NCBI GenBank assembly: GCA_036172245.1
Contig: JAYWIR010000017.1
Location: 3,596,001-3,660,000 of the forward strand
DNA from: Raillietiella orientalis
Taxonomy: Eukaryota
Direction: 5' to 3'
Length of the DNA: 64,000 nt
Position 1 is the first letter of the stretch. The number at the start of each line of letters is the position of its first letter. The notes under the pieces are model-generated. The model was not told the DNA's origin and made no database searches. It saw nothing but the letters and a program-made list of their open reading frames with translations. Shown here in pieces: positions 13,601-60,690 of the stretch. The position numbers were made by a program, and so were the translations under genes.

Positions 13601-14499
13601 ATAATATTTCGGGCTTTCCTCTGCATTGCTATTTCATGCAAGACCGAGAAACAAATCGGTTTCGAAAATGAGGAACCAGGAAGATCTATCCTAGTTCCAG
13701 ATTCGGTAGCAACGTTGCCAGCTTCTAAATGGGCTCAAAGAGTAGAATAATTGGTGTGAATAAGGAGCTGCTCCAGAATAACCCAACGCTCTCAAGCGTA
13801 GCAAAATCGAGTAATTTATTCTGAATGTTCGTTTGCTTCTTTACGTTATGTTTGCTAATTGCAGCACGTTGGGCTACTGGCAGTGGGCATGGAATTTTTA
13901 AATGCTTTTGATTGTCACTCGCAGAGTGGTGCTTTATTCAAATAATATGCATCCTGTGGAAGGAATTTGTAATTATTTGTAACATTCTCGTTGTTTCAGT
14001 TTCATAGAAGAGTTTCTCGTGTGTGGTACGCGCATTACGAGCAGATCAAATAAAGTGGATTTGTGCATTATGTATAGTGAGCACGTCCTGTGATTTAACG
14101 GCACGATGTTGAAGCCTTTGTCCCAAAGTTTGGAATGGTACAAACAGTGTAGAGGACATCGTTTTGAAAGTTCAAGCGGGAACTGGAGATAGAAAAGGTG
14201 TTTCGCAACCCCCTGCATTTGAAATCATTAATCAAATGCACTTACGATAAAATGCAGCACACAATGAGCAATCTTCGAACAGTCGTCCTTACAAAGGATG
14301 TTTGTGTTACACTTCATTGATCCAGTTTGTGAATTTGCTCTTGGATAAGAGGAAGCGATCTCATCGAAAGCAATTCATTTTCTATGTGTTGAGGGGTTGC
14401 AATGAGCAGGCTCACGTTAAATGTGTTCAGTTTATGGATGAATTGTTAGGGAATTTCTCTTATGATTTTAATGATAAGTGAATAGTTAAAAACGTAAGA

Positions 14500-16782
14500 A
14501 TGGATAAAAAGCGCGCTATGGATGAAGAGGTTGTTGAGGAGTCCAGAAGAAATAGGCGCAAAAAATCAAAAATTGAAGACAATGATGAATATAAATCAGA
14601 GAAGTACAGCTGCTCATCCCCAGGAATTATGGCCTTTGATAAAAAAAGCTATAAGTATCCAGATATAAAGAAGGAAAGCATTGAAAGTATTAGTATAGAA
14701 AGAATTGATAAGGAAGAAGATCCTGATGATTCTGAACATGATGACCCTACTGGCTTGGAAGGTGCTGCTTTTCAGAGCCGATTACCTTTTGATAAAATTA
14801 GTACTTTGGAAGCATTAAAATTCCCTGATATTGCGGAAGGTGCCCTTCAAACTCAAAAATTGTTTCTCTATTTGAGGAATAGAATTTTACAATTGTGGCT
14901 GGAAAACCCCAAGCAGCAGCTTTCATTAGAAATAGCTCAGAGTCAGATTGAACCTCCATACAATGCTGATGCCACACTTATTCAAAGAGTACATAGTTAT
15001 CTTGAAAGGCAAGGCTTGATTAACTTTGGGAATTTCAAATTGGTAAAACCAATGACTCAAAAAGCTGGAAAAGTTATTGTAATTGGTGCTGGAATTGCTG
15101 GATTATCAGCTGCCAGACAACTGCAACAGTTTGGGGTAGAAGTTGTAATTTTGGAAGCAAGAGATAGGGTTGGAGGAAGAATTGCTACTTTTCGGAAAGG
15201 AAGCTATGTTGCAGATTTGGGTGCTATGGTTGTAACTGGGTTGGGTGGAAATCCAGTAACAGTCTTATCCAAACAGATCAACATGGAACTGCATAAAATC
15301 AGGCAGAAATGCCCATTATATGAATCCAATGGGGGAACAGTACCCAAAGAAAAAGATGAAATGATTGAAAGAGAATTCAATCGTTTGTTGGAAGCTACGT
15401 CATATCTTTCACATCACCTTGACTTCAATTATATCAATGGCAAACCTATTTCATTGGGGCAAGCTTTGGAGTGGGTCATTAAACTTCAGGAAAAAGCCGT
15501 CAAAGAGAAACAAATCAAACATTCTCTATCGATTCTTGAATTGCAAGACAAATTAAAAGATGTGTTGCAAAGAATGGCTAAGTTGAATATCAAGGAACTT
15601 CATGCTAAAATCCAAGCATATGAAGAAAAGCACCCCCCTACAAGAACAGTGAATGAAGAGTTTTGTTTAAAAGTGATGATGAAAGATTTGAGTAGTTTAA
15701 TTGCAGAATATGATGCTTTAGCAGAACAGCAGAAAGAAATTGAACTAAAGCTTCAAGAATTGGAATCTTCTCCTCCAAGTGATGTGTATCTGTCTTCTCG
15801 AGATCGTCAGATATTAGACTGGCACTTTGCAAACTTGGAGTTTGCTAATGCTACTCCCCTAACAAACTTATCCTTAAAACATTGGGATCAAGATGATGAT
15901 TTTGAATTCACAGGCAGTCACTTGACAGTACGGAATGGTTATTCATGTGTACCAGTAGCCTTGGCAGAGAATTTGGATATTAAATTAAATACAGCTGTTC
16001 GCCAAATCCGATATAACAATAATGGTGTAGAAATTCTTACTTCAAATGCAAGAAATCATGCAAATCCTGTGACTTACAAAGTTGACGTAGTTCTCTGTAC
16101 TTTACCTTTAGGAGTACTAAAGCAATCAGTTTCTCCTGCAAATCAAGGATTACCAAATTCAGTTCATTTTATACCACCTCTCCCTGAATGGAAAACTGCA
16201 GCTATACAGAGACTGGGATTTGGAAATCTTAATAAAGTTGTTCTGTGTTTTGATCGTATCTTTTGGGATCCCAATTCCAATTTGTTTGGTCACATTGGAA
16301 GTACAACTGCAAGCAGAGGTGAATTATTTTTGTTCTGGACCCTATACAAAGCTCCTGTCTTAATTGCTTTGGTTGCTGGAGAAGCTGCAGCTGTAATGGA
16401 AAATATCAGTGATGATGTAGTTGTAGGACGCTGTGTTGCTGTACTGAAGGGTATTTTTGGAAACTGTGTTGTGCCTCAGCCTAAAGAATCAATAGTAACA
16501 CGATGGCGAGCTGACCCATGGTCAAGAGGTTCTTATTCATATGTCTCTGTTGGATCTACTGGTAATGATTATGACCTATTAGCAACACCAGTTTCTCCTC
16601 CCTCAAACACTCCATCACAGAATGGTCAAGAACAGAGCCCTCCCCGTGTTTTTTTTGCTGGAGAACATACTAATAGAAACTATCCAGCAACTGTGCATGG
16701 TGCAATGCTGAGTGGACTTCGAGAAGCAGGCAGAATCCTAGATCTCCTTTTGGGATGCCCATATAGTGCACCAAACAATTGA
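14500..16782 (+). CDS. KDM1A: Lysine-specific histone demethylase 1A (LSD1), 760 aa, intronless CDS
   Basis: SWIRM domain ([18 protein letters not shown]), FAD-binding [10 protein letters not shown] and EARDRVGGR, Tower coiled coil, [12 protein letters not shown], catalytic Lys in [11 protein letters not shown]-terminal [20 protein letters not shown]. Confidence 0.97.
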
Positions 16783-23325: not shown

Positions 23326-26751
<3,426 letters not shown>

Positions 26752-27400: not shown

Positions 27401-27592
<192 letters not shown>

Positions 27593-28739: not shown

Positions 28740-29338
28740 AGCTACTCCATGGATGTGGAGACCATTCTAAACAACCGTCTGTTTCAAAAATGTGTCCTTC
28801 GACTCTTGTGGGAATGCAACCGCATCGTAAATACCTCCTTGTCTCCTTCCCCGCGAACTGGACTACATGGCCTCAGGAGTCGGTTTCCGCGTGGGCTAAG
28901 TTCAATGACACCAGAAAGTGGACTACTCCTGCCTCCGTAGAGGCAGGTACGCTGGACAGCCCCTGCAGGAGATCGTTTTCAACCCACGGAAACTTCTGTG
29001 GGGTTCATTTATCCCCCTTGCCCCCGTGCTGCAATCCCTGAAAAACGCTAGGGACATCCAGGAGGAAGCATCGTGGAAAGTGTCCTGCCTCATAGAAAGC
29101 AGGAAAAAACTCTTGAAGGCGTGGACAGCTCGGAAGCTAGCGGACGCTGCAACCCCGATTGTCCTGCCTAAAGGACTTGTACGCTGGGACGAGCTGCTCG
29201 GCATACCTCCGGAGGAGGTGAAGTGGCCCCCAGCGCGTTGGGACAATGGCACCCTCCCCTTGGATTGGCAGGAGACGGCGTTGCTAGTGTTGCATTGGGA
29301 ACTCCTTTGCAGAGCACACCTCTCCCACTGGACACTAG
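28740..29338 (+). mobile_element. L1/Tx1-like LINE copy D, left part of the ORF2 C-terminal region
   Basis: WDELLGIPPEEVKWPP..PLDWQETALLVLHWEL..HWTL, homologous to the other copies. Ends at TSD TGGACACTAG (29329-29338). Left boundary approximate. Confidence 0.8.
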
Positions 29339-29340
29339 GG

Positions 29341-29975
29341 TGCCGCCCGCGTCGTAGGCTTTGTGGTTAAGGCTTCCGTGCGTGGCTCCATGCGTCGCGA
29401 GTTCGAATACTCCGGCAGAAACTGACGCCACTGCGTCGTTAGGTTCAGAGTTTCTCCTGCTGGTTGGCCGAGGCACTCGGGTGTGGCACCGGCGGTGGAC
29501 TAAGCCGGAGGTCCCTGATGAAGGCTGGAACGATGGGAGTCGACCTTCTGGTCCTTCCAGGAATCAAGGAGTGGGGAGTTTCCCCTCCGGTCGTACAACG
29601 GAGAGCGGATCCTCCTCACCGGGGGGACCTTTCCGGTTGGTTTCAACATGGAGCAGGAGCCCTCACGGGCACCTCTCCAGTTGTTTAAAGGAGCGGACCC
29701 CCCTGTTGCGGGGGGACCCTCCGAGTTGTGGCCTCTTTAAGGAGTGCAAGAAAGCAAAGGAGAGCGATTCCCTGCGGGAAGCTGCGAGCGCCCCTTCTGA
29801 GTTTCGGAAGCTTCCCTTTGGGGTTCTCTTCAGAGGAGTGAACAGGAGAGGTTCCTTTGCGGATCCCCTTCGGAGAAGATGAAATGGAGAGGACCACCCT
29901 CCCCATTAGGGAGTTTCCCTCCAAAGAGAATGAGGAAGGAGGTTCCCTTCGGGATTCCCCTTCGGAGACAACCAG
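29341..29975 (+). mobile_element. tRNA-headed SINE-like element, 635 bp, with 11-bp TSD
   Basis: Flanked by GGACACTAGGG at 29330-29340 and 29976-29986. A-box-like GGCTTTGTGGTTAAGGC (~29356-29373) and B-box GAGTTCGAATAC (29399-29410). No TTTT inside. Hairpin-rich tail. Confidence 0.75.
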
Positions 29976-29986
29976 GGACACTAGGG

Positions 29987-32881
29987 AGTTCCCACCCGGT
30001 CACGCCGGGGCATTTATTTCTAAACAGTATATTTGCGGCTAGGTCCGCTACGGCCAATAGTTCATGGGGTCTGCCGGGAAGCTGGTACGCAGACCGGCTC
30101 GACACTCCTTGGCAGCGGAGGGGGATGGGGGGGAAAACAAAAAGAAAAATAAAGGAAACAAAAAAAAAAACGGAACTTTGGAGGGCCGGGAAGGGATCAC
30201 AGCCCGCTGGAGGAAGAGACCATCCTTTCCAGGATGCCCTCGAGGTCCGTCGTCATAGCTCCCAGATGGGACCAGCCGATCGCGATTCGCAGGTAGCGAC
30301 CCGCGTGTACGATGGGGTCCCTATCGCTGCTTCCTCTGTTGGCTGCGCTCCACGCGGCCACAATCCCTCGGAGGCAGCAAAGCGCTGCCAGGGTTGAGGC
30401 TGGTGGCAGGGCGTCTCGCACGAAAAGGAGTCACAGAACGTCTCTGGGGGCACTGCCGACCGGCATCTGGAGGTCGTAGAAAAATGTTCCCACAAGGGCC
30501 GGAGGGCAGCGCAGTCCACTAACAGATGGGGGAGGGATTCCTTCTACCCGCACACTGCACACTTCTGTCCCACCTTCTCCAAGGTCCAGTGGTGGCGGCG
30601 CGCGTAGCAGGGAAGACCCCAGTGCAACAGCAGCAGCACCGATTCCTGCCACTTGAGGGGGAGATTAGATGTGTCTCTAAATACCGGGGGCCACTTTAGG
30701 TCATCCAGCGGGATGCCTAGCAACTCGCCCCATCTCTGAATTCCTCGCGGGAGGACGCTTATGGTCTCGGCATCAGCCAGTTCCCTCATGGTCCAACCGC
30801 TTAACAGCTTCTCCTTGCCAGCTATCCGGCAGGAGACTTGCCACCTCGGCGTTCGGCTGCTGCCGAGCGCCCTCCTCAAGAAGGGCAGTGCCGTGGTCAG
30901 TGGGGTCGTCTCTGCCCACGTGCTTCTGGCGGGACACTCGAGCATGTTTCGCAGCGTGCAGCGGGTGTAGATGCCGGGTCGCAGGCAGTTCCAGGATTCA
31001 CCACTTCTGGTTCAGCTTCGCCCACGTGCCGACTGTTTCTTCCAGCCATGCGCTGGAGTTGGCGGGGCTGCGGGTCATCCAGCCGTTCTCCTTGGCCAGG
31101 GTATCCATGCGTCCGAGGAGAAGGTCGCATCTTATTTTCCGACCGAGGCACAGAAGAAAAGAGGAGAGCCCTCCCGCTCTGGATACACATCTGGCGAGGA
31201 GGTGGATGGAACGCACCAATGGGTGCTCCAGTACTGCGCTGCGATGGCCAAAGTTCGCCATCGCAGCTGAATTTCCATGCGCTCCAGCGTCTGGAGGCCT
31301 AGACCACCATCACGACGCGGAGAGCACAAGTCCATCAAAGGGACTCGGGGCCTCCCCTTGCCCCAAAGGGCGATGCGCAGGAGGTCCTTTGTCCGTTTTT
31401 TCATACTCATGGGGACAGGGAAAACAAAAAGTAGGGGGCGAAGGATGGGGGCCGCAAAAGCGTTCCATACTGTGGCCCGTTCCGGCAAGTGGAACTTGCC
31501 CTCCAGGGACGGGCCGATCGCCAAATACACTTTCTGAAGACGGCCTGACCATGCTTCTGACGGGCAGAAGTCCCCCAGCGGAACGCCAAGGTACTTCAGG
31601 TGTGTGCCCGTCGGGATCCCCAGGCGGATCCAGTCAGGCCGTCCAACCCACGTCGCTCCAACTGCCACCATCGACGATTTTGCCCTGTTGACCCGTAGCC
31701 CTGTCCTATGGCTTAGCAGGTCGAAGAAATATTCGACTGCCGTTGCCGGGGAGGACATTGGGATCAGGAGCAGCAGATCGTCAGCATCGTCAGCCGGCGT
31801 ACCTGGGCACGAGCTCGGCAGGGCAACCAATGTCACCTTGTATGCTCTCAGCACCAGTTCGAAATAGGTGCTAAAGAGCAGGGGACTCAGACTGTCGCCC
31901 TACCGGATGCCGCGCCTTACCTTCACGCCGAACACGTTTTGTCCTCTGAAAGAAACGGTGATTATCGCATTGCGCCAGCAGGAGAGCGAGTAGGCCGTTA
32001 AGACGGCCGGGAAGCCCATGCAATCCAGGAGCTCCAGAAGGAGTTCCCGGTCCACGCAATCGAACGCTTTGTGCAGATCGACTGCGATCGCTAGAGCCCC
32101 CTTCCCTACCCGGTCGTCCCTTACCTGCCCCACTGGAGCCCCCAAATCAGGGCTGTAGACAATTCGTTTTCCCTTATTCTATTCCCTTTTTACATGGAAC
32201 CATGTGCTGGCGAGGAACATGTTCGCTTCCATGCTTCTCCCTGGAACAGCGTAAGTCTGTTCCGGACTGATGAAGCTATCCGCTACCTGTCCCAGCCGCG
32301 CAGCCCACAGTCCAGCCAGCAAATTGGCGTCCGTGTTCACAATTGTGATCGGACGCCAGTTGCTTACTTTATGGAGGTCTCCTCCCTTTGGAAGGAGCCT
32401 CACTCTGGCTGACCGAAACGAGGCGGGAACATCGCCTTCGTTTCGGATCAGCCGTGTCAACTCGAGCACCAGGGAAGTCAGCTCTGCGGCGAAGCACTGA
32501 AAGAACTCCGCCTACAGGCCGTCCTCCCCTGGCGCCTTACGCCTCTTGAGCCTTTTAATCGCGGTGATAATTTCACTGGTCGTAAAAGGCTCGTCGAGGC
32601 TTTCTTTCTCCTCCTCCCTTATGGCCGGGGCTTCATCTGGGAGCAAGCGCCGCGAGGCGTCCCACTCCGCAGGTGCTTTGGCATAAAGGGAGGAGTAAAA
32701 TCCACGCACGAGGCGACGTATCGATGCCAGGTCCGAGTGTTCCTGGTCCAAGTCGTCCAGCACGCTGGACGGCCCGATTTGCCAGGCTTGACGCTCGGCC
32801 CCGGCTTTGTACTCGGCCAAGCGACGGACGTCAGGGGTCCTCGCGTAACGACGGGCGTGCAAATACGCCCTTTCGTTACGG
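29987..32881 (-). mobile_element. L1/Tx1-like LINE copy A, 3' part: ORF2 tether, RT, CCHC finger and 3' UTR
   Basis: RLKRRKAPGEDGL, SNWRPITIVNTD, VDLHKAFDCV, KYLGVPL, GGLGL, CAVCG..PHLLVDC. Several stops and frameshifts. T-rich 3' UTR with AATAAA. Confidence 0.9.
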
Positions 32882-33865
32882 AAGGACGTGTTTTTCCGTT
32901 GCTCCGTCAACAAGTACCGGGAAGCGGTTTCTTCTTGGGAAGTGTGTGTTTTTTCACATCGTTGGTGTCCGATGGCATCGCTGCCAGAGGACACCACGAT
33001 GGAGGTAGGCGTGGGGGAGGCTAGTCCCCCCCACGGCCTACTGGATCAGGGGCATCCGCCCCGGAATCATCCCCGGCAACGCCGAGGACGTGGAGCGCCA
33101 TGGTGGCCGCGCCGAGCGCGGAAACCTTGGCGGAGCAAGCGGCTTACAGGGCCTCAGGATATAAACCATCTCTGGTTTATAAGGTAGGACCCCTGTTTGA
33201 TGGTCGCACCGCCCGGGCCTTCAGTAAGGCACTACAGGACTTTCCTGTAAGAGAAGAGGATCTTGACGGCCTCTCCGTACTCAGCGGGGGGCAGCGCGTG
33301 GAGGTCGTCTGCAAAGACGTAGCCTTAGCACAGCGCCTTATAAACACCCCGCTGAATGTGGATGGCCGGAAAATCCTACCGGTTAGCATGGACCGCTCCG
33401 TAGTGGTCCATCTAACCGGAATCACAAATCGGATGACGCGCTCGGCGGTCGATTCCGAGTTGATGAAATACGGAGAGGTACACGCGTTGTGGCCAAAGCC
33501 CACCATCTTCGAAGGCTTTCATAGCCATTTCGGAGGCCAGGCTGCAGCGCGTGTCACTGTCAATGAGGGTGCTGGGTTGCCCCACAAACTGGAGGTCGCG
33601 AAGAAATCCGTCGACCTCTGGTACGTGGGGAAACCCCGCTATTGTGGCTACTGCAATGCAGTAGGGCACTTGCGCAAGCGGTGCCCGAACATTGAGTGCC
33701 ACTTGTGCGGGGTTAAGGGACACGTGCGTCGTGTGTGCCCTAAACGCCCCACCCCGGTGCCACCTGCTGCCAAAAAGGCGCAGGCCAAAAAAATGAACAA
33801 GGTCGAAAGACCTAAGCGAGAAACTGGCCGGCCCCAGCCACCATCTCCTCTTCCTCTCACCCAGG
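32882..33865 (+). mobile_element. LINE 5' UTR and ORF1 (gag-like, two CCHC zinc knuckles), 3'-truncated
   Basis: ORF 33100-33969 contains CGYCNAVGHLRKRC and CHLCGVKGHVRRVC. Probable true start is ATG 32972, with a frameshift in C7 at 33026-33032. DPE-like GGACGTG at 32884. Fused at ~33866 to ORF2 C-terminal sequence in another frame. Confidence 0.85.
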
Positions 33866-34562
33866 CGTCTCCCGCTAAAGTGGCAAGAGTCGGCACTGCT
33901 GCTGTTGCACTGGGGTTTACCCTGCAACGCGCGCCGCTTCCACTGGACGCGAGGAAGTGTAAGCCCTGAGTGTGCCAGGTGTGGGGAGCGGGAATCGCTC
34001 CCCCACCTTCTAGTTGACTGTGCTGCCATCCGACCCCTGTGGGAACGGTTCGGGACGACCCTCGGGCTCCCAATGGGCAGCGCGCCCAGAGACGTTCTTC
34101 GGCCCCTCTTCGTGCGGGACGCCCTGCAGCCCGCCGCAGCCCTCGCAGCCCTCTGCTGCATCCGGGGCATCGTGGCGGCCTGGAGCGACATTTGCGACGA
34201 AGGAGTGGATGCCAACGAGAGGGAAGTCATCCCGTATGTTGTGAGCTTCATGCGAAGAGCTGCGAGATGGCCCCATCTGGGACAAACGCAGAAGGACCTA
34301 GAGGGCATCCTGCGAAGGATGGGCCCTCCTCCTAGTGGATAGTGATCCCTTCCCCTCCCTCCAAACTCCTTTTGTTTTTCTTTATTTTATTTTTTTTTGT
34401 TTTCTCCCAAACTCTCCTCCACTGCCGAGGAGCGTCACGCCGGGCTGCGTCCCGGCGTCCCGGCAGGTCTGGTGTTGTGCGGCCGTTAGTGGGGCCTCGT
34501 ACCACGTTTTTGTAGAGTTTCAATAAACGCCCCGGGCGTACCCGGGTGGCAACACCAAATCC
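33866..34562 (+). mobile_element. LINE copy B, 5'-truncated (ORF2 C-terminal finger and 3' UTR)
   Basis: PLKWQESALLLLHWGLPCNARR..CARCGERESLPHLLVDC, stop at 34342, then the conserved 3' UTR. Confidence 0.88.
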
Positions 34563-36544
34563 CGGCGTGTTGGTGCGGCGGGGCATAAGGAAGGGCGATA
34601 GCCTGAGTCCCCTGCTCTTTAGCACCTACTTCGAGTTGGTGCTGAGAGCGTACAGGGCGACTTTGGCTGCCTTGCCGAGCTCGTGCCCCGGCACGCCCGC
34701 AGTAGCAGCATACGTCGACGACCTTCTGCTTTTGCTCCCCATGTCCGCTCCGGCAGCGGCAGTCGAGGATTTCTTCGATCTGCTAAGCCACGGGACGGGA
34801 CTGCGGGTGAACAAGGCAAAGTCGTCGGTGGTGGCGGTTGGTGCGACGTGGGTTGGACGGCCTGACTATATCCGCTTATGGATCCCCGCGGCCAGGTACC
34901 TGAAGTACCTTGGCGTTCCGTTGGGGGACTTCTGCCCGTCAGAAGCCTGGTCAGGTTGTCTCCAGAAAGTAGAGCTGGCGATCGGCTCATTCCTAGAAGG
35001 CAAGTTCCTCTTGCCGGAACGGGCCGCGGTATGGAACGCGTTCGCGGCTCCCATCCTCCACCCCCTGCTTTTTGTTTGTCCCGTTCCCTTCCTGTTGAAA
35101 AAGAGGACGAAGGACCTACGCATCGCCCTTCGGGGCAAAGGGAGGCCGCGAGTGCCTCTGAAGGACTTATGCGCTCCGCGTCGGGACGGCGGTCTTGGTC
35201 TCCTGACGCTGGAGCGCTTGGAAATCCAGCTGCGATGGCGCACCTTGGCCATCGCAGCAAAGATGTGGAGCACCCCTTGGTGCGTTCCGGCCCGCCTTCT
35301 TGCCAGCCGTGTCTCCAGGACGCAAGGACTAGCGTCTTATCTTCTGTGCTTCGGCCGGAAGATACGAAGATGCGGCCTGCTCCTCGGACGCATGGACACC
35401 CTGGCCAAGGAGAATGGCTGGATGACCCGCAGCCCCGCCAACTCCTCCTCAGGGCTGAAGGAGACCGCTGGCACGTGGGCGAAGATAAATGAGAAGAACC
35501 ACGAGACGTGGAACTGCCTGCGAGTCGGCATCTACGCCCGCCGCACTCTGCGTGAAATTCTTTAATTTCCAGCCAGTTGCACGTGAGCGGAAGGGACACC
35601 CCTTGCTACGGCGATGCCCTTCGTGAGAAGGACGCTTCACAACAGCCGGAAGCCGAGGTGGCAAGTCTGCTGCCGTATCGCAGGCAGAGAGAAGATGATG
35701 AGCGGCTGGACCATGGGAGAGCTGACAGACGCTACGACCCCTAGTGTCCAGCCGAAAGGACTAAAGAGATGGGGCGAGCTGCTCGGCATCCGGTCGGATG
35801 ACCTGAAGTGGCCCCCGGTTCTGATTGGATCCAGGATTCTTCCCCTGGAGTGGCAAGAGTCGGAGCTTCTGTGGCTGCATCGGGGTCTACCCTGCAACGC
35901 GCGCCGCTTCCACTGGACGCGGGGAAGAGCAAATCCTGCGTGTGCCAGGTGTGGGGAGCAGGAGTCCCTCCCCCACCTCCTAGTTGACTGCCCTGCCCTC
36001 CGGATTCTTTGGGATCGTCTTGGAACGGCCCTTATGATACCGGTTGGTGGCAACCCCAGAGACGTTTACAGTCTTCTCTTCGTGCGGGACGCCCTGAGTC
36101 CAGCCGCAGCCTTGGCAGCACTTTGCTGCATCCGTGGTATTGTAGCGGCCTGGAGTGATGCCGAAGATGAAGATTGCAACGTAAGGGACGTCATCCCGTA
36201 TGCTGTTCGCTTCCTGCAGAGAGCTACCGGATGGCCCCAGCTGGGCAGAATGAAGGAAGACCTCGAGGGCATCCTGCAAAGGATGGGCCCTCCTCTCAGT
36301 GGAATGTGATCCTTTCCCGTCCCTCCAAACACTTTTTGTTTTTGTTTTTCTTATTTTATTTTTAGTTTTGTTTTTTCCCCCATCCCCATCCACTGCCGAG
36401 GGGAGTCACACCGGGCTGAGTCCCGGCGTCCCGGCAGGTCCGTTGTTGTGTGGCCGTTAGTGGGGCCTTGTACCACGTATGTAGTTGACCAATGCGAAGT
36501 TTTAATAAACGTCCCGGCGTACCCGGGTGGCATCACCAAATCCC
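34563..36544 (+). mobile_element. LINE copy C, from the RT core to the 3' UTR
   Basis: GIRKGDSLSPLLF, AYVDDLL, KYLGVPL, GGLGL, CARCGEQESLPHLLVDC. Premature stop at 35565. Conserved 3' UTR. Confidence 0.9.
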
Positions 36545-36910
36545 CGGGACAGGCGGTGCAGAGGGAACTCCTCGCAGAACTCGAGGACCGAGACCTTCAT
36601 GCGGTCCCAGTCGTCGAGATTCCGGAGGATGACGCCTCCCAGGAATTGGCAGAGATGTTTTGCCGCACCTGAGAATCGCGTCCAGTCCCCGGGCAGACGC
36701 CACGCCCTGGATGGTGGTCCTTTGTCGCGAGGCATAACCTCGAAAATGAGTCGGAAATGGTCCGATAGCGTCGACGGAAGTTTCCCTCGTCTGCCGACCC
36801 GTGGGCACAGGTCGGCGTCAAGCAAGACGTTTGGACGCTTTGGACCATTTCCGGGAGGTCCCACAACAAGTTGCTCGCCCGCATAGCAGCTCACAGCTCG
36901 TTGGCCGCGT
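36545..36910 (-). mobile_element. LINE copy A, 5' part (APE endonuclease C-terminus)
   Basis: LSDHFRLIFEV..WRLP..WDRMKVSVLEFC. Joins in frame to 32881 as HRLSR-NERAYL. Bounded by the TSD at 36911-36920. Confidence 0.8.
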
Positions 36911-37350
36911 TGGACACTAGAGAGTGTGGATGCCAATTGTGCAGGTGGCGGGGAAAGGGAAACTTTTCCCCACCTGCTAATCCTTGCCCTCCTCCCAATG
37001 TGGAATCGACTATCGTCGAGTCTGAACATTCCGGTTGGCAGCCCGAGAAACACTTTCCGTCGCCTCCTGATGCGGGGCGCCCTGCCAGCAGCAGCGTATG
37101 TTGCAGTTCTCTGCTGCATGCGCGGAATCCTGGATAAATGGACTGTGTCGATGCAAGGCCACAACAGTTGGAATGCCATTCACTGGGCAGCCATCTCCGT
37201 GGAGAAGGCTTCCCGATGGCTCCAGCTTCGAACTTTGGGACCTGCACTTGTCTGCATCCAAAACCGGATGCAGAGGACCGCCCACGGCGAGCAGTGATCC
37301 CTTCCCTCCCCCCCCCCCGGTAAAACATTGCCCTGTATTTTTGTTTTTTT
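36911..37350 (+). mobile_element. LINE copy D, right part
   Basis: WTLESVDANCAG..ERETFPHLL continues the left part in frame (HWTL|ESV). Stop at 37297, then a T-rich UTR. Confidence 0.8.
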
Positions 37351-40270
37351 ATTCTTCCCCTCACCCTTCGCCAGCGAAGAGGACCTCACCGACCTGCGGG
37401 CCGGTAGGCACATGCGTTGCAAGACAGGCGGAACCACTTGGTCTGCCTGAATGAACATGAAGACTATTATAAAATTTTACTATGTTAAAATTTTAATAAT
37501 GAATGCCCCTGCAAATCCGGATGAAAAACCCGGATGAATGTAGGACAACCAGCGTCTTCTTGTGGGGTGAATTAGGAACCCACGACGCATTGCGTCGATT
37601 CCTTTCGGAGCATTCTAACCCACGACGCATAGTTCCACGCCCGGAGACCCCCGTAACCACACGGCCTCCTACGCGGGCAAAATAGTAAAATGGCTTTCGA
37701 ACTTTGGAAAGAAACTTCCTCTGCGGAAGTGCATGAAGGAAATAGAGTAATGAAAATTAAAGGAGCGACCATTTGATGGCAAAAAGATTTTGCTTAGTCA
37801 CGGATTGTAGTCAGATCACAAACCGATCTGTTTTCAGGCTACAAAAGTAAAGCCAAATTCACTTGAAATTCATTTGATTCCATAATCAAATGATTCGTTT
37901 GATCATCTGCTGTGAAATCAATGAAAAATCTCAAAGTTTACCCGATTTTTTAATGAATGGTTCGTTGCATAGAACAAGCTAGTGGGTAAATACGATCTTT
38001 TGTATCGACCACGAATTTCCAAAAGATAAACAGAGATGATGTGCTGATGTGTGTCACCAAACTGCTCTGGAGTTTTCCGTAAACAACAGTTCTATTTCCG
38101 TGAGTCCGAATAAGTCCCAGCTAGTAAATCCCAATCGTCCAACATCGAAAAGCAAGCAAGTATATTCCGAAGGAAGCATTTGATAGAAATTTACAGTGAT
38201 ACAGCAAGGGACCACTTCCATAAAAGGGTCTACTGAAAGCCGAATGCTGGTCGCTAGCGGTTATGAGTGAAACATCAAAAATTGGACGGTTCATCCTTCG
38301 ATAGGGGACAAAGAAACTGAAATTCACAACATAAGATGAAAAGCATGTGTATTGTGGATCTTACGGGGCTTTTAGTAAGGCTTCTAAGTATAAAAGGATT
38401 CGAAACCTCCTGAAAATAGCAATCTACTGTGGCATTGGATGCAGAGTAGTTCCGTAGATCCGATTCGACCATATCAGATGTCGAAGTCTGGTACGTGCCG
38501 AAATGCATCGTGAATCTTGGGGTACAATAGTGTTATGATCCGGATACTGAGGTTTTTTCTCTAAGGGTTTATGAATGCACTCCTCAATCTTCGTTATGTG
38601 AGTATTTCATATCTAGATGAGCGTACAATCTGAGCAAGCAATCTAAAACAAGTGATCATAATGCTATCTCTGCCACCTGCTATTCTTTTAGGGAAATTTT
38701 TCCGAGAGAATCTGCCTCCATCCTTGAAAACTCATGGAAAAAAGAGTACATCTCTAGAAGTAAATCTAAAAGGAATCGCCATCACTTTCATCGAATGCTT
38801 CGTGCTTTTAACCAATTATTTGATGATGTGTTATTTATCTTATATCGACTCTATGCCGAATTTTCCATTACTTTTCAAAAGGTGTAATTTATCATTGTGA
38901 TTCTTATGAGCATAATTGCTATTATTTTAAAATGTTTGAATATAAACTTCTATTCCCGTTAGAAATATATTCTTCAATTCCCAATATAAACGCTCTATCC
39001 TCAGTTTCTTAAAAAAAAAACGAAAAGTTCCCAGTGAACAAAACAGAAAGTCGGTCGCACTCATTAGGCTACTTAGTAATTAATGTGATTATTTGTTTCT
39101 CAAGCACATTTTTTTATTTCGTGAAAACAAAACTTGATAATGTTCCGACTGCTTTCTGCGCTTGGAAACAAAAAGTTTACATCTATAGTTACCACAACGA
39201 TTTTTGTATATTCTGATTTGCTCTGCAACCGTCTTCCTTTAGGAAATCTGTCGCTCTTTTTCTTAGGTAGAACAATTAATTCCAGGTAAGCATTTTTTTT
39301 TTTTTTTTTGGCTTTGAAAGTGAACACGCCTTAATTTATACCCCCCCAAAATGCTGTTAAGTAGTTCTGATTGCAATGTTTTTACCTAAACTTTCTCCTA
39401 GAAAATAAACCAAACAAATCACCAAACATCCCCCTTACACTACACAATAGTTATTATCCTTTTGGTCCATTGATATGAAAATCCAATCACTAAAATCACA
39501 AGCTTATCATTATGTTTGATTTGCATTTGCGGAATCTTTTTTTTCTTCACATCTTCAAGAAAAGCATATGAACCTTGCCATTCTTTTCGAAGTAATTCAG
39601 GAAAGAGACTAGAATGAATGTCTTCACTTAACAGGAGAAAAAAACTAGATCATGAATATTAAAGTTGTCCTAAACAAAAAGACATCAGCTACTAAAGTTT
39701 ATCACTGTATTTGAGAATAATAGTTGTATATGTCGAAGCGATGCTTTTCGATTTTAATTACTGCGAGTAGAATTCAGTGACCATCTGAAGGATTGGTACA
39801 GTGCTCTGGTTTTATTGAGAATCGTACCTTCCACATAAAGAGTTAAAATAAAATGACCTTTGGCAGGTGCGTGGATACTTGAGTATGCTTATCGATAAAA
39901 CAATCCAGTAACTAGAAAGATCTGAAAAAGTTACGATAGAAAGGAAATTTAAGAGTTAACCACATGGATCCGTGGATCCTGTTGGGTGCCCAAATGTATT
40001 GGATTCGTTCTGACGGTTTCTTGTTTGTAAATAACGGAATTTCTGATCTACAAAGCAGAAATCACCCGAGATTGCATCTGTGTTGTGGTCTTGCTGAAGT
40101 TCAGACGCATGTATTTCTATACTACATAAAAATGATATCCACTGATGTTTTGAATAGATATTTTTCACCAGTGTTACGAGTGTTTGTTGGACTTTTTTTT
40201 TTTTTTTGGCTTTTCCTAACGTGTGGGTTTGTAACATTCCCTTTGGTTTTCGAGGTAGCATGATTTACAG

Positions 40271-54450: not shown

Positions 54451-54554
54451 GCTTACACACAAGACAACAAGACAGACATATGTTGTTCATCGGGTAATCT
54501 TCAATGGTTTTCCAGCACCTTTCTTCCCCTGTTTGTCTGTTCGGGTGCTTCAGG

Positions 54555-56060
54555 CGCGGTAGGGTTCCCCTTTCCCCGCACCTGTAGCATTTCGCACTTT
54601 CCCTCCCTCTCCAGGAAGCAGTAGTAGAGGCGCGCTTTGTATGGGATTTCCCAATGGAGCAGGTGCAGCAACGCCGATTCCTGCCACTTGAGAGAGCTGA
54701 AGGGTGCGGTGGTCCTGCAACTCTGGGGCCACATCGGGGATTCGCGAGGATTCAGCAACAGCTCACCCCAGCGGATCCTTCGGGTGGGACAGGACACTGG
54801 GGGTCGCAGAGTCCATCAGCAGGACGCTTGCCACCTTGCTGGAAGGCCGTTGTCCCCTGCTTCCCTTAGAGAGGGCGGCGCTGAGACAGGAGGAAGGGGG
54901 TGGGTGGGGATGCGGTGTAAACGAAGGCCTCTTTCATGGGTTGGTAGCGATCTCTCGTATAGACTGACGAGCTTGTATCTGCCTTTTCTCAGACAGACGC
55001 ATTCCGCCTTGCTCGAGCCGTTGATCTTTCCCCATGCGGAAACTGACTCCTCCAGTCAGGCAGTGCAGTTCTCGGGAACCTCTCTGTGAACCACAGGGCT
55101 TTCGAAAGAGGTTTTTGATCCGTTTTTTGATAGCAAGGGCGAAGGAGAGGAGCCGCGAACAAGCTCCAAACCCGAAACCGCTACGGCATAACCGTAGGAT
55201 AAAACCGACAACCGTTCCGGAAAGTAAAACTTGCCGTTCTGGACCGGTCCGAGCGCCATATCTACTTTTTGGAGACATCCCCATCTGAATTCTGCTATGC
55301 AGAAGTCTCTCAACGAAACGCCAATATACTTAAAGTACCGGCCCGCGGTAATCCCCAAGCAGATCTAGTCCAACCGTCCGGCCCACGCCCCACCGACCGG
55401 AACCAATGACGACTTTGCTATGTTCACCTCCAAGCTTGCGCCCTGGCTTAGCACCTCGAAGAAATCTTCGAGTATCGACGCCAAAGTGGACATGGGGCGT
55501 AGCAGAGGAAAATCGTCTGCACAGGCCGACACGGAAGTAGGATCGGGGCACGAGCTTGGCAAGGTTTCCAGTGTCTCTCTGTATGCTCTTAGCACCAATT
55601 CAGAGTAGATATTGAAGAGCAGGAGACTCAGACTGTCACCTTGTCTTATACCGCGCCGCATCGGTATGCCATACATGTGCCGACCGTTATAACAGATGTT
55701 AATTAGCGCGCAGCGCAGGTGGGCCCGGAATACGACCGGGAATTCCATGCGTTCTAAGAGCTCCAAAAGAAGGAGTTCTTGGTCGACGCAGTCGTATGCT
55801 TTTCACAAATCGACTGAGACCGCAAGAACCACGGACTCGTCCGTTTCCCGGTGGTCTTCCACTCCCAGGTCTGCGGAGAATGCAGGATACTCGCGAATCG
55901 TCTGTGCAACGCGCTGTTGCAATTGACACCAGTGCTGGCGAAGAACAGGTCGGCTTCCATGGTTCGTCCGGAAAACAGCGTAGGTCTGTTCCGGACTGAT
56001 CACGGATGCAACCCGTCTTGATCTCTCATTCCATCTCCTCAATGGCTTCCTGGTGACAGG
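54555..56060 (-). mobile_element. Degraded L1/Tx1-like ORF2 (RT to finger), same family as the 29-37 kb copies
   Basis: ISPEQTYAV, GIRQGDSLSLLLF, CADD, FKYIGVSL, LKWQESALL. Confidence 0.85.
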
Positions 56061-56679
56061 GAATCGTCTGGAGCCAGGCAGGCATGCAGATGAGCGCCGC
56101 CACGATGCCATGCTTACTCGAAAAGTTCTTTGCCTTCGAGGTGAAACAGAGTCTCCGTGTCCCAGAAACCTTTCTACTGTTTGATGTTTTCTAGGATGTT
56201 GAGGTCGCTCATGATGATTATGCTCGTGGGTGCGGTTTTGCTGCTCAGGAGAGTTCGCACAGCTTCCTCACACCGATGTTTTTTTTCGTGTACACGTCCA
56301 TCAGGAACAGATGGATGCTTCCGCACCACGACATCCGAACTCCAACGACTCGGCTAGACTACAAGCGATCCCAATCCACAGGAGACCTAACAGCAAAGAG
56401 ACCATCTGCCTCAGCAGGAAGCCCAAGGTTTTTGTCCTGCTGCTATTGTGCGGAAGAAAGTCAGCCCATCGCAGTCCTCCTCATGCCTGAGCATTCACGC
56501 AGAAAAACACTAATGTTACCATAACTACACCACCCTAACAAGTCGACCAGAGCTGTACTTTCAGAGCTGGGGATTGAAAATTGGTGGGTGGGGATGGGAA
56601 CATCGGGTTTGCTGCCTTCAGAAGGCAGAGATGGCTCTCGTCCCCTTGCTCGATTTCAATTTCGTCTTACCGGAACGGG

Positions 56680-57710
56680 CCTTCATCTGGGATACTTCTA
56701 TCTTCATCCTCCTCCGCTGCTTATTTTTTGCTTGCCTTTTTCGATAAAGATCCAGAAGCAGCTTCTCCTCAGGAAACATCTATGGGGCACCACAAGGTCC
56801 TAATCTACCCGAAAGACTTGTTGGAGCCGTGCCAGGATGTGGGCCTGGGCATACTGACTTTCAGCAAGATCGGACTGCAAGTACAGTCTCGTCAACGTTC
56901 TGCACCAAATTGTGGACTTCTATGTGGTGAACGTCATCTTTTCTCATCCTTCGGCGATGCTCCGGCTGAGCAGGGCATCTATCGCTGCTGCCACGCAGCC
57001 GACATGGGATGGATTCAGTAGCTCCATGACGCTTCTTCCTTCACTCCTAGAAGTCCACACATGGATCTCTTTCCGAGAAAAAAACTGGAATGCCTGGAGG
57101 CAGGGCGTGACAGAATTCTGAGTAGTCACTCCGGAAGTGTGCCCCAAAGGAAATTCGTCCGCCGCAGAAATCCCTCTGCAAACCACTAGGAGATTTCCTG
57201 CAGGACTTGACTCAATGGTCCCGGATAGCTGTCACACCTCTTGAAGCAGCACTGTCTGTCCCCAGGGCAAACATTGACTGCAACCAACAGGATCAAAGCA
57301 GGGGTCGTCCTACAGGATTGTGGGAGCCGAGAAACTCCCTGACGTTGGTGAACGCCGCCACTCCTTGTTTTCGGGAAAAGGGACTCCCTCGGTGGGGTGA
57401 TCTGCTCGGCGTGCCCTTCTAAGAACTCGTGGTCCCTCCCATGTGCATGGACACGACGGTGCTCCCATTGCTGTGAAGACGGAATGTCGTGCTGTTTCTG
57501 CGCTGGGGATTGCCGGTGCAACTCAGAGCAGGCACCCGGTTTCCGGGAGAGTCGCCTCCCCGAACTGTTTCAGAACTGTTCCGGTTCCTGTTGTTCTGCG
57601 GTGCCCTGGCAGATATGTCGCGGAGACTCGCTTCGGTGGTCCGCAACCCGGAGGGCATCTCTCCGGACTTGCTGCGGCGCTTCTTCACTAAAGGTGGGCA
57701 GGTGCTTTGA
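56680..57710 (+). mobile_element. Degraded L1/Tx1-like ORF2 C-terminal half
   Basis: LLRKHLWG, GLGILT, KGLPRWGDLLGVP, LRWGLP motifs shared with copies A-C. Confidence 0.65.
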
Positions 57711-57795
57711 TTGCACACCCGGGTGCGCCGGGGCGTTTGTTCTCTTGCAGGAATCGATGGAGCAGATGACAAACCAATTACCATTGTTACACTAG

Positions 57796-60690
57796 AAAGA
57801 AGGGGGGGAGATGGACAGGTCCATCACGTCCACAAAGCGGAAGGGAGATGAAACAAAAATAGAAGATGAAAACAAACAATAAAAAAACAAAAATTAGTTG
57901 GAGGGAAGGGAAGGGATCACATTTCGTGGTGGGTGAGGCCTTTGCATCCGTTGAAGGATGCCGGCTGAGCTCCTCCTTCTCCCTTTCCAGGTGAAGCCAC
58001 CTCAAAGCTATCTGCAGGAAGCGGATGGCATGCAGGACAGTACCTCCGTCGCTTCGGCCTCCCTCGGCGTCACACTACGCCGCGACGACACCGCGCACGC
58101 AGCACAGAGCTGCGATTGCGGCTGCAGGCGTCATGGCGTCCCGCACGAAGAGGGACCTCAAAGAGTCTCTGGGATAGTCCATGGGATGCGGAAGGAAAGC
58201 AGAGAAACGTTCCCACAATTCCCAGAGGGCGACACACTGCACTATCAGGTGGGGGAAAGTCTCCTTCTCTCCACATTTGGCCCAGTTCGGCGATGCGCTT
58301 TCCCTCGTCCAGTGGTGCCGGCGCGCATTGCACGGAAGACCCCAGTGCAGCATCAGCAGCACCGATTGCTGCCACTTGAGAGGAAGAAGCTTCCTGTCTA
58401 GGAACACGGGGGCACTTCCAACTCTTCGAGCTGACTGGAGAAGAGTTCGCCCCAACGTTCCATTCCTTTGGAGACAGTTCTTGCTGTTGCCGCTCCAGCC
58501 AGCTCACGCGGTGTCCAGCCACTGATAGGCTTCCTGCGGGCGGAGATCTCGCAGGAAACCTCCCACTTCGCCGGTAGGCAGGTGCCATGTATCTCGATAG
58601 CGGAGGACACCGCTGCTGCGAAAGGGATGGGTGGCTGCTGGGTAGGCTAACATGGTCAGCTCACTACCCACCGCCTCCAGTGTTCTTCCGCTGTTCTTCT
58701 GAAACTGTCGACAGCGGATAACTTCCGACAGGGCCTGAGTGGTCTGGACTCACATCTTCACTTTCTCCTGCCGCCAGGCCGGAGTATTTGCAGGGAAGCA
58801 GCGAGTCCACGGGTTTGTCACTGTTCTCACCAGAGCAGCGACACACCGGAGGGAAGCCGCAGGATGGGAGCCGATGGTGGTGACACGCAAACAGGGTTGC
58901 GAGTCCTTCGCCACCGACCGCCAGCCGGGAGAGCAAACGTGCAGGGGCGCACCAATTGATGGCCCAGTTCTGTGCCACGAAGGCCAGTCTTCAGAAGTTC
59001 AACTGAACTTCCATGCGCTCCAACGTCAGGAGTCCAAGTCCTCCATCGCGACAAGGAGCACACAAGTCTTTTAATCGGATTCGGGACCTCCCATTGCCCC
59101 AGAGGGTTTTTCGAAGGAAGTCCTTCGTCCGTTTTACCACACCGGGGGGGAGCAGGGCACACGAAAAGCAGAGGTCGTAGGACGGGGCCACAAAAGTGTT
59201 CCAAATAATGGCCCGATCCGGCAACAGGAAGTTGCCTCCTTGGAGCGGGTCGAGCACCGACTCTGTCTTCTGGAGGCAGTCGAACTACGCTTCCTTAGGG
59301 GAAATGTCCTCCATTGGCACCCCTAGGTACCTAAATTACGGAACTGTAAGGATCCCCAAACAGACCCAGTCCGACTGCCCAGCTCATGTCGCGCCGACCG
59401 GGCACACGTTTGACTTTGTTCCATGCCCTGTTCACTTCCATGCCCGATCCCCTGCTTAAGAGCTCGAAGAATTCCTCGAGTGCGTCTACAGCATGGGGAT
59501 CAGCAGCAAGAGGTCATCTGCATAGGCTGACACGGTCGGCATACCGGGTCACGAGCTGGGCAGGGAAGCCAGAGTATCCTTGTACGCCCTCAGCAACAAC
59601 TCGAAGTAGGTGCTGAAGAGTAAGGGACTCAGGCTGTGTCCCTGCCTCACGCTGCGCCATACCGGAGTGCTGTACACGTGCTGCCCATTGAAAAAAACAT
59701 TGATCAACGCGGAGCACACAATCCACAAGGAGGTGGGGGAGGGACTCCCGTTCCCCACACCTAACACAATTTAGGTTCACTGCTCCCCAGGTCCAATGGT
59801 GTCGGCGGGCGTTGCAGGGGAGTCTCCAGTGCAGCAACAGGAGCGCTGACTCCTGCCATTTTAAGAGGAGGGTAGGGGTGTTTATTAGCACCGGGGGCCA
59901 CTTCAGATGTTCAATCGGAACATCGAGCAGCGCGCCCCAGCACAGAAGTCCATGGGGAGGTGTACTCGGGGTCGCAGCGTCAGTTAGCTGGCACGTCTTC
60001 CACTCTCCTATCTTTTTCTCCCTTTCGGAGATTTTAACTGTAGCCTCCCGCTTCGCCGCAACATGACATGAAACCATTTACACTGAGGAGCTGTGGACCT
60101 CACTGTCTCTTTTGTTTTCGCAGAAAGTATTCCTGTGCAACCTGAACCAGGTTTGCGAGAACAGATAAGCCTCCATAGTTTGACCAGGAATAGCTTATGA
60201 CTGCTCAGGGCTAACTTGAGGATAGTCAATCTTTCTAGGCGCTCTACCAATTTCGATAGCAGCTTGCCACCCTTAAAGAAAATACCAAAGTGATAGGATG
60301 CCAGTTGCTGCAGTTGGAGCGTCTCCTTATGGAGGGGGCGCTCTCTCTGAGCGAAACGAGGCAAACTATGTCCCCTGGATAGGCGAGGTAAACCTTTGAA
60401 TCGGTGGGTACAACGCTTCCGCAGAACATCGAAAAAAATCCAAAATCCGGCAGATCACCCGCTCTTGGAGCAGTGCGCTTCTTGAGCCTCTCCAAAGGAT
60501 CTGCACCAAGCAGAAATCGTCGATATGCGTACGTTCCTCTTCAAGTAGCTCGGACGCACTTCCTGCAGCAATTGTCGCGAAAACACGCTCTCTACAGGAT
60601 GTTGGATGCTGTTCCTAGACAAGCCTGGGGATGTCGGACTCCCGGCAGAGAGAAGCAACGAGTGCTCAGGAAATCTCAGTAGATCTGCTA
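57796..60690 (-). mobile_element. Head-to-tail degraded L1/Tx1-like fragments (~57796-59715, 59716-60060, 60200-60690)
   Basis: RLKKRTAP/SNWHPITL, then CVRCGERESLPHLLVDC fused directly to RT sequence VRQGHSLSPLLF, then a second finger KCGEKETFPHL and a T-rich 3' UTR. Confidence 0.8.

What the first reader, a model, noticed from the sequence alone, without database searches (positions are those of the whole stretch)
28740..37350. Reconstructable nest of L1/Tx1-like LINEs inserted into one another
Seen: removing 29339-36920 rejoins copy D in frame (HWTL|ESVDANC), with the 10-bp direct repeat TGGACACTAG at 29329-29338 and 36911-36920. Inside it, minus-strand copy A rejoins in frame (HRLSR|NERAYL) when the plus-strand block between CGG 32879-32881 and CGG 36545-36547 is removed. 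That block is 5'UTR+ORF1, then 3' end B, then RT-to-3' end C. Inferred order: D <- A <- C <- B (B with a large target deletion), plus a SINE. The flanking AT-rich ~17 kb carries no copies, which suggests the family targets itself. Known: several Tx1-clade elements are target-specific, including for other transposons.
Basis: partly seen in the sequence, partly recalled or inferred. Interest (0 to 1): 0.75.

Follow-up and report, generated by a model that had tools for sequence, protein, structure and literature searches.

The report
Nested L1-like LINE cluster, one site reused
An 8.7-kb GC-rich island in an AT-rich, mite-like animal genome is a real stack of broken L1-type jumping genes inserted into one another, and one insertion point was hit twice at almost the same base, which hints that these elements prefer to land in or beside their own earlier copies.

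Summary
Removing 29339-36920 rejoins copy D into a 274-aa open frame colinear with copies A, B and C. The 10-bp repeat sits at the stated coordinates. Copy A rejoins in frame. The inner block is 5'UTR+ORF1, a 0.7-kb 3' end (B), then RT-to-3'-end (C).

New here: GGACACTAG occurs three times on the + strand, at 29330, 29976 and 36912. The third copy lies between a 635-bp non-coding insert and A's 3' end. The insert's own 11-bp repeat includes two bases of A. So the order is D, then A, then the insert, at the same site within 0-2 bp. This sandwiched duplication is known from target-specific Tx1 elements (PMC4494074).

All reverse-transcriptase-like DNA in the window lies in two clusters: this one and 54.5-60.5 kb.

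The RT is closest to human L1 ORF2p. Tx1-clade membership, the "SINE" label and genome-wide self-targeting could not be tested: no genome, reads or related contigs were available. Self-nesting L1 elements (Zepp) are already known. This is a likely new member of a known kind, of moderate interest.

The parts
28850..29338 (+). Copy D, left part (ORF2 C-terminal region up to the HWTL codons). The 5' truncation point is approximate (28810-28850).
   Evidence: Alignment to C, A and a cluster-2 copy; tblastn 28921-29337 to A positions 750-888.
29329..29338 (.). Target-site duplication, copy 1 (TGGACACTAG), part of D.
29339..29975 (.). Non-coding SINE-like insert of 635-637 bp, orientation unresolved. 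A ~105-130-nt end module lies at 29345-29470.
   Evidence: Flanked by GGACACTAG(GG) on both sides. No Pfam, Rfam or tRNA hit. The module recurs at 37678-37576 with 74% identity.
29976..29986 (.). Middle copy of the duplication (GGACACTAG plus GG). The GG is shared with A's 3' terminus.
29985..32881 (-). Copy A, 3' part: linker, RT, C-terminal Cys/His region, 3'UTR with conserved hairpin (29992-30018). Contains in-frame stops.
   Evidence: tblastn to P0001 at 67% over 522 aa.
32882..33860 (+). Segment E: 5'UTR (32882-33099) plus ORF1 (33100-33860) with two CCHC knuckles. ORF1 is cut before its stop codon.
33861..34563 (+). Copy B: the last ~0.7 kb of an element (Cys/His region plus 3'UTR and tail).
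   Evidence: 78.5% identity to C 35831-36544; tail pattern at 34522-34549; junction alignments.
34564..36544 (+). Copy C: 5'-truncated within the RT, running to the 3' tail. One frameshift near 35565-35587.
36545..36910 (-). Copy A, 5' part: end of the endonuclease-like region (SDH motif) plus linker. 5'-truncated at 36910.
   Evidence: The profile of 33 relatives aligns to residues 29-119 (10.9 bits).
36911..36920 (.). Target-site duplication, copy 3 (TGGACACTAG).
36921..37540 (+). Copy D, right part: degenerate Cys/His motif, C-terminus and 3'UTR. The 3' end is approximate (37527-37540).
37576..37684 (.). Second copy of the SINE-like end module. It abuts D's 3' end in the same relative arrangement as the first copy has to A.
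54531..60489 (.). Second cluster of at least 5 degraded family fragments: F(-) 54531-56033, G(+) 56613-57700, H(-) 57701-59713, I(-) 59715-60047, J(-) 60132-60489.
   Evidence: No clear duplications were found there.

Best explanation
The block is a genuine nest built by successive target-primed reverse transcription of 5'-truncated copies. The copies come from several diverged subfamilies (55-80% nucleotide identity) of one L1-superfamily LINE. That LINE has an ORF1 with two CCHC knuckles and an ORF2 with an endonuclease-like region, an RT and a Cys/His C-terminus. It has no poly(A) tail and carries a conserved 3' hairpin.

Order of events:
1. D (about 1.1 kb) lands in AT-rich DNA.
2. A (about 3.3 kb, opposite strand) lands in D's HWTL codons and makes a 10-bp duplication.
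3. A 635-bp non-coding passenger element lands in the regenerated site at the D/A junction. Its nicks are shifted by at most 1-2 bp and it makes an 11-bp duplication that includes two bases of A.
4. A plus-strand element lands in A's endonuclease-RT linker at a CGG.
5. B is added, either into that element with a ~2-kb deletion or as E+B beside C.

Inferred: insertion is not random. The machinery prefers sites in or beside earlier copies, and the duplication recreates the preferred site. This is the behaviour of target-specific Tx1 elements and self-nesting Zepp elements. At the 3' junctions of B and C the tail's terminal CGG coincides with a CGG in the target, which suggests priming by short tail-target pairing.
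For: Shown:
- D rejoins exactly and A rejoins in frame.
- There are three exact copies of GGACACTAG at the three junctions. The 11-mer GGACACTAGGG flanks the insert.
- A, B, C and D are all 5'-truncated, and 3 of the 4 tails match one 27-28-nt pattern that none of 100 shuffles matched.
- The hairpin is predicted in 4 of 4 tails (A, B, C, H), 7 pairs, without covariation.
- All RT-like DNA in the window lies in the two clusters.
- In a uniform-insertion simulation, at least 7 of 10 events fell in or beside family DNA in 2 of 200,000 runs. At least 4 of 10 did so at P = 0.017.
- No other transposon type lies inside the nest.
- D has lower GC and CpG o/e than the inner copies.

Precedents read as passages:
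- Tandem insertions 'sandwiching a TSD', and Tx1 families that target other transposons (PMC4494074).
Against: - The insertion sites inside copies are not homologous (ORF2 ~888 in D, ~121 in A). The 3' flanks of A, B, C, D and H share no motif. A single recognition sequence does not explain every event.
- The window was picked because it looked nested, so the simulation overstates significance.
- Selection against insertions in the flanks would also produce clusters. An intronless KDM1A-like gene lies at 14.5-16.8 kb.
- B/C tails run 17-19 nt past the hairpin, against 7 nt in A if the 9-mer is a duplication. So the 9-mer could be read as part of A's tail.
- The insert shows no tail likeness to the LINE in either orientation (20 comparisons, lowest shuffle p = 0.05).
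- Cluster 2 gave no clean duplications.
- No reads, genome or related contigs could be obtained.
Confidence: 0.6

Rival explanations
1. Passive accumulation. The LINE inserts more or less at random. Copies survive only in neutral 'safe' DNA such as older copies, so nests build up without any targeting.
For: Nested transposons are common in many genomes (general knowledge). The insertion sites within copies differ and share no motif. The flanks hold at least one gene. The window was selected after the fact.
Against: This does not explain two insertions at one site within 0-2 bp. Both clusters hold only this family plus its passenger, while other repeats in the window lie elsewhere. The 16.8 kb from 37.7 to 54.5 kb has no recognisable gene yet holds no copy.
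Confidence: 0.22
2. One event, not two. A and the 635-bp segment entered D together as a read-through (3'-transduced) transcript from a source copy. That source copy itself sat at a CTAGTGTCC site next to the SINE-like sequence. The middle 9-mer is then the source locus's duplication.
For: The SINE-like module also lies just 3' of D, in the same relative arrangement. The insert has no LINE-like tail of its own. Read-through of target-specific elements is discussed in PMC4494074 (passage).
Against: The same 9-11-mer must have been used at two loci, so this still implies sequence-specific targeting. B and C carry no such extension. The 11-mer repeat that includes A's terminal GG fits a later insertion more simply.
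Confidence: 0.12
3. Assembly artefact: similar LINE copies were wrongly joined.
For: Repeat-rich regions are prone to misassembly. No reads could be laid on the region (none was listed).
Against: The copies are only 55-80% identical, too diverged to be collapsed. The junctions show exact duplications and exact colinear rejoining, which chimeric joins would not produce.
Confidence: 0.05

Closest known systems
Zepp / ZeppL L1-clade LINEs of green algae (Chlorella, Coccomyxa, Chlamydomonas)
   Same: Both form clusters of nested, mostly 5'-truncated L1-type copies that make local GC peaks. Copies are absent between clusters. Zepp clustering is attributed to insertion into existing copies (passages in PMC3446292 and PMC8226300).
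   Different: The host here is an animal (mite-like). There is no poly(A) tail; that Zepp has one is recalled, not checked. One cluster per chromosome and a centromere link are unknown here. No phylogenetic link was tested. The primary Zepp paper (Higashiyama 1997) was not held.
Target-specific Tx1-clade LINEs and their SINE partners (Tx1-Mar with SINEU-3 in crocodilians; Tx1L in Tx1D)
   Same: In both, a LINE and a short non-autonomous element use the same target inside another transposon. Tandem insertions sandwich a copy of the duplication (PMC4494074, passages). A Cys/His motif follows the RT.
   Different: The target here lies in a diverged copy of the same LINE superfamily, not in a DNA transposon. 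Only one site is documented, against the '>20% of flanks' criterion used in that paper. Other insertions in the nest use other sites. Clade membership was not tested. That paper's supplements were not viewed.
Human LINE-1 (ORF2p structures 8c8j, 8uw3, 8sxt)
   Same: This is the best RT match: E 7e-40 to 5e-39 over ~395 residues. Both show 5' truncation, a 10-11-bp duplication, and possibly insertion with a target deletion.
   Different: ORF1 here has CCHC knuckles. No L1 ORF1p was matched in PDB, where 7 weak knuckle hits were the only result. There is no poly(A) tail. The tail has a conserved GC-rich hairpin. The linker is about 45-50 aa shorter.

Membership tests
L1 superfamily (L1/Tx1 group) non-LTR retrotransposon | RT domain most similar to L1 ORF2p rather than to other LINE groups | tested here: met
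   P0001 is 64-67% identical to A and C. It matches L1 ORF2p at E 7e-40 and R2 proteins at 7e-17 or weaker. 10 distinct PDB sequences were matched.
L1 superfamily (L1/Tx1 group) non-LTR retrotransposon | N-terminal APE-type endonuclease | tested here: inconclusive
   Only the last ~50 residues survive, in A-right. Pfam gave no hit. A profile of 33 distant relatives aligns the SDH region at 10.9 bits.
L1 superfamily (L1/Tx1 group) non-LTR retrotransposon | ORF1 with a nucleic-acid-binding domain (CCHC knuckle type) | tested here: met
   zf-CCHC scores 21.6 bits against a cut-off of 20.8, in two stretches. An AIR2 knuckle match has E 1.7e-5. An RRM was not shown.
L1 superfamily (L1/Tx1 group) non-LTR retrotransposon | Cys/His motif C-terminal to the RT | tested here: inconclusive
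   zf-RVT scores 19-21 bits against a gathering score of 27.5 in B, C and a cluster-2 copy. The C..C..H..C pattern is visible in A, B and C and is degenerate in D.
L1 superfamily (L1/Tx1 group) non-LTR retrotransposon | Hallmarks of target-primed reverse transcription: 5' truncation, conserved 3' end, target-site duplication | tested here: met
Tx1 clade | RT phylogeny groups with named Tx1 elements | not testable with these tools
   No named Tx1 reference sequence could be obtained. The only lead is an Atlas cluster named 'Transposon TX1...' at rank 22, score 0.88, below the tool's 0.9 line.
Tx1 clade | Target preference: one kind of sequence in >20% of flanks (criterion quoted in PMC4494074) | not testable with these tools
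   No genome was held. No runs were listed. No related contigs were found. Within the window, one site was used twice.
Zepp-like self-nesting LINE | Copies occur as clusters of nested 5'-truncated elements and are absent elsewhere | tested here: met
   This holds within the 64-kb window only: 2 clusters and no solitary fragment. The genome-wide state is unknown.
SINE (tRNA-, 5S- or 7SL-derived) | Pol III-type head derived from a small RNA gene | tested here: not met
   ARAGORN found 0 genes. Rfam gave no tRNA, 5S or 7SL match even at E<=10 on either copy. The B-box-like motif I saw rests on a recalled consensus only.
SINE (tRNA-, 5S- or 7SL-derived) | 3' tail shared with the partner LINE | tested here: not met
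   20 local alignments (4 ends x 5 LINE tails) against 200 shuffles each. The lowest p was 0.05 and most were >0.2.

The most novel reading that the evidence does not exclude
An animal L1/Tx1-like lineage homes to short sequences carried by its own family. The site cut in D, CTAGTGTCCAG, is the antisense of the conserved HWT codons. The same 11-mer also occurs in sense in copy C at 35741. Each insertion recreates the site. The family and a passenger element would therefore build self-propagating GC-rich islands in an AT-rich mite genome. This would be an animal counterpart of the algal Zepp clusters, possibly with a chromosomal role.
Probability: 0.2. Interest if true: 0.6.

Novelty: new member of a known kind. 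Interest (0 to 1): 0.38.

Why it matters
If the preference is real, this family limits damage to its host by landing in its own dead copies. That strategy is documented for Zepp in green algae and, with other targets, for Tx1 elements in vertebrates. It is little described in arthropods.

It would also explain how sharp GC-rich islands arise in an AT-rich genome. And it would provide a natural case for studying how an APE-type endonuclease re-finds a site that its own duplication recreates.

If the preference is not real, this is an ordinary nested repeat. Its main use is then as a well-resolved example for annotating this uncharacterised LINE family, which has only one close relative (P0001) among 1.8 billion representative proteins.

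Tried and rejected
- Whole genome: none is held.
- Public runs: none was listed, so spanning reads and expression could not be checked.
- Metagenome scans: the 3'-tail pattern gave 0 matches. The RT alignment matched 197 pattern stretches, none confirmed. A first alignment was unusable.
- The tail pattern in prokaryote genome contigs gave 0 matches.
- The RT alignment in viral contigs matched 65 stretches, none confirmed.
- Earlier scan notes held nothing.
- Protein searches found one close relative (P0001), then only ~30% identity. The cluster names were uninformative. P0002 is a tandem RT-fragment artefact with no hit in the window.
- tRNA origin of the insert is rejected on present evidence.
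- LINE-like tail of the insert is rejected.
- The two inverted module copies as ends of one large inverted-repeat element: rejected. D-right lies inside that span, D-left lies outside it, and the flanks share no duplication.
- Twin priming: rejected. A's 3' end faces the middle repeat, not outward.
- Cluster 1 as a duplicate of cluster 2: rejected. Identity is only 66-75% and the order differs.
- A duplication for copy H was looked for and not found.
- Ranking the ages of A, B and C by GC or CpG gave no resolution.
- The mite genome paper PMC11758997 has no mention of Tx1 or nested elements (term search only).
Full report
**Setting**

The window is AT-rich (about 28-38% GC) with sharp GC-rich blocks. 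The block at 29-37.5 kb is 57-61% GC. An uninterrupted 766-aa ORF at 14482-16779 is a KDM1A/LSD1 homologue (SWIRM plus amine oxidase). Its best hit is from an oribatid mite, followed by other arthropods and molluscs. The host is therefore an animal, probably an acariform mite or a relative. No whole genome, sequencing run (none was listed) or earlier scan note was available.

**What the elements are**

Translated pieces of the block match Pfam as follows:
- RVT_1, 29.7 bits against a cut-off of 29.6.
- zf-CCHC in an upstream ORF, 21 bits against 20.8.
- zf-RVT after the RT, below threshold (19-20 bits against 27.5).

The whole-library HMMER search found one close relative, P0001 (619 aa, 64% identity). 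Everything else was at 40% or less, and the 40% hit (P0002) is a tandem RT-fragment artefact. P0001 aligns to copy A over 522 residues at 67% and to copy C over 334 residues at 63%.

Against PDB, P0001 matches human L1 ORF2p at E 7e-40 to 5e-39 over ~395 residues. It matches R2 proteins at 7e-17 or weaker. So this is an L1-superfamily LINE.

The Tx1 clade could not be tested, because no named Tx1 reference could be obtained. An Atlas cluster named after Xenopus TX1 appeared only at rank 22, score 0.88, which is a lead and nothing more.

The endonuclease type rests on weak evidence. Only about 50 terminal residues with an SDH motif survive. Pfam does not recognise them. A profile I built from 33 distant relatives aligns them at 10.9 bits.

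There is no poly(A) tail. Three of the four tails in the nest (A, B, C) match one 27-28-nt pattern that none of 100 shuffles matched. A 7-pair GC hairpin is predicted in the four tails tested (A, B, C and H from cluster 2). The hairpin columns are invariant, so there is no covariation support.

**Checking the nest**

Self-comparison gives these relations:
- A (30071-31930) against C (36437-34563): 77% identity, opposite strands.
- B (33861-34563) against C (35831-36544): 78.5% identity.
- D-left (29135-29333) against C (35720-35918): 70% identity.

The 10-mer TGGACACTAG is at 29329-29338 and 36911-36920.

With 29339-36920 removed in a script, D reads as one 274-aa open frame across the junction. 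The distance from HWT to the His of the Cys/His motif is 19 residues in D, A and C alike. The D rejoin is therefore exact.

A's two halves join in frame when the plus-strand block is removed. I could not show that nothing is missing. No other copy or close relative covers this linker. My profile of distant relatives has about 43 more positions than A just after the junction. The linker is also about 45-50 residues shorter than in human L1 and other relatives. A deletion of up to ~130 bp or a naturally short linker are both possible.

- 5'UTR plus ORF1, cut before its stop codon (32882-33860).
- B, the last 0.7 kb of an element.
- C, running from the RT to the 3' tail.

**The new observation**

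The 9-mer GGACACTAG occurs three times on the + strand, at 29330, 29976 and 36912. It occurs once more on the other strand, inside C at 35741. The third + strand copy lies exactly between the 635-bp non-coding insert and A's 3' end, 7 nt past A's tail hairpin.

Read with its neighbours, the 11-mer GGACACTAGGG flanks the insert at 29330-29340 and 29976-29986. The final GG is not D sequence, because D continues AGAG after the repeat at 36921. The GG is the complement of A's terminal CC.

The simplest reading has three steps:
1. A entered D and made the 10-bp duplication.
2. The duplication recreated the site at A's 3' junction.
3. The short element then entered that site, with nicks shifted by at most 1-2 bp.

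Twin priming does not fit, because A's 3' end faces the middle repeat rather than outward.

A read-through (3'-transduction) origin of A plus insert is possible. It requires the same 9-mer to have been used at a source locus, so it also implies sequence preference.

A caveat: B and C run 17-19 nt beyond the hairpin, against 7 nt in A. The 9-mer could therefore be read as part of A's tail. But an 11-nt identity with the D junction would then have no explanation.

**Precedents**

Kojima (PMC4494074, passages read, supplements not viewed) describes the following:
- Tandem SINEU-3 insertions 'sandwiching a TSD'.
- SINE and Tx1 copies side by side at one target inside a Mariner transposon.
- Tx1 families that target LTR retrotransposons.

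For Zepp, Craig et al. [quoted passage not shown] Blanc et al. (PMC3446292, passages) report 26 nested Zepp clusters that form GC peaks. The primary Zepp paper was not held.

**The 'SINE'**

The insert has no coding signal. ARAGORN finds no tRNA. Rfam finds no small-RNA family, even at E<=10. Its ends show no likeness to the LINE tails in either orientation.

A ~105-nt module at one end (29345-29446) recurs at 37678-37576 with 74% identity. That second copy is again immediately 3' of a LINE (D), with the module end distal to the LINE. If the module is the 3' end, the second copy is a 5'-truncated tandem partner of D. If it is a 5' head, the second copy is a shorter relative. Orientation is unresolved.

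A 13-bp tandem repeat (AAAYCCGGATGAA, 37513-37538) at the D/module boundary is unexplained.

**Is insertion non-random?**

Evidence for:
- All RT-like DNA in the window lies in two clusters, this one and 54.5-60.5 kb. The second holds at least five degraded fragments (F to J) abutting one another.
- None lies in the other ~49 kb.
- No other repeat type sits inside the nest.
- In a crude simulation of uniform insertion into the window, at least 7 of 10 events fell in or beside earlier family DNA in 2 of 200,000 runs. At least 4 of 10 did so at P = 0.017.

Evidence against:
- The window was chosen because it looked nested.
- Selection in the flanks would also cluster copies.
- The sites used inside copies are not homologous (ORF2 ~888 in D, ~121 in A).
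- The 3' flanks of A, B, C, D and H share no motif.
- Cluster 2 gave no clean duplication.

One mechanistic hint: at the 3' junctions of both B and C, the tail's terminal CGG coincides with a CGG in the target. This is what priming by short tail-target pairing would produce.

**Order and age**

D has lower GC (0.57/0.53) and lower CpG o/e (0.62/0.70) than A, B, C and E (GC 0.58-0.61, CpG o/e 0.83-1.09). Both D halves are about equally far from the other copies. This fits one old outer copy.

A, B and C cannot be ranked. They differ by 20-30% from one another, which may reflect subfamily rather than age.

For E, B and C two models fit equally:
- A full-length element (E...C) entered A, and B later entered it with a ~2-kb target deletion.
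- C entered A, and an internally deleted E+B entered the same site beside it.

The junctions carry only 2-5 bp of ambiguous overlap.

**Verdict**

The nest and its reconstruction are confirmed. The self-targeting idea is plausible (about 0.6 including its variants) but is untested genome-wide, and it has clear precedents. I rate this a new member of a known kind, of moderate interest.

Noticed in passing
window 14482-16779 (+): An uninterrupted 766-aa ORF encodes a KDM1A/LSD1-type histone demethylase (SWIRM plus amine oxidase). Its best hit is from an oribatid mite, which suggests the host lineage and an intron-poor gene or a retrocopy.
   Followed up: partly
window 54531-60489: A second cluster of at least 5 degraded fragments of the same LINE family (F to J) on both strands, abutting one another. 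No clean target-site duplications were found there.
   Followed up: partly
window 6115-6800 and 9976-10661: Two direct repeats of 686 bp, 99.85% identical and 3.9 kb apart. Their ends are not TG...CA and no flanking duplication was seen. Either a young long-terminal-repeat-like element or a local duplication.
   Followed up: partly
window 25945-26132 and 27401-27591: A direct repeat of ~190 bp at 95% identity, 1.45 kb apart, in the AT-rich left flank.
   Followed up: no
window 63423-63890 (-): An ORF with a CENP-B N-terminal DNA-binding domain (Pfam E 1.4e-4), suggesting a pogo/Tigger-type transposase remnant.
   Followed up: no
window 35741-35751 (+): Copy C carries CTAGTGTCCAG in sense (codons TPSVQ). 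This is the same 11-mer as the site cut in D when read on A's strand. The site in C is unoccupied. This could be chance or a second potential target within the family.
   Followed up: partly
window 37513-37538: A 13-bp tandem duplication (AAATCCGGATGAA / AAACCCGGATGAA) lies exactly where D's tail meets the second SINE-like module. It is unexplained. It may be a tail repeat, a minimal abortive insertion, or tail-target pairing.
   Followed up: partly
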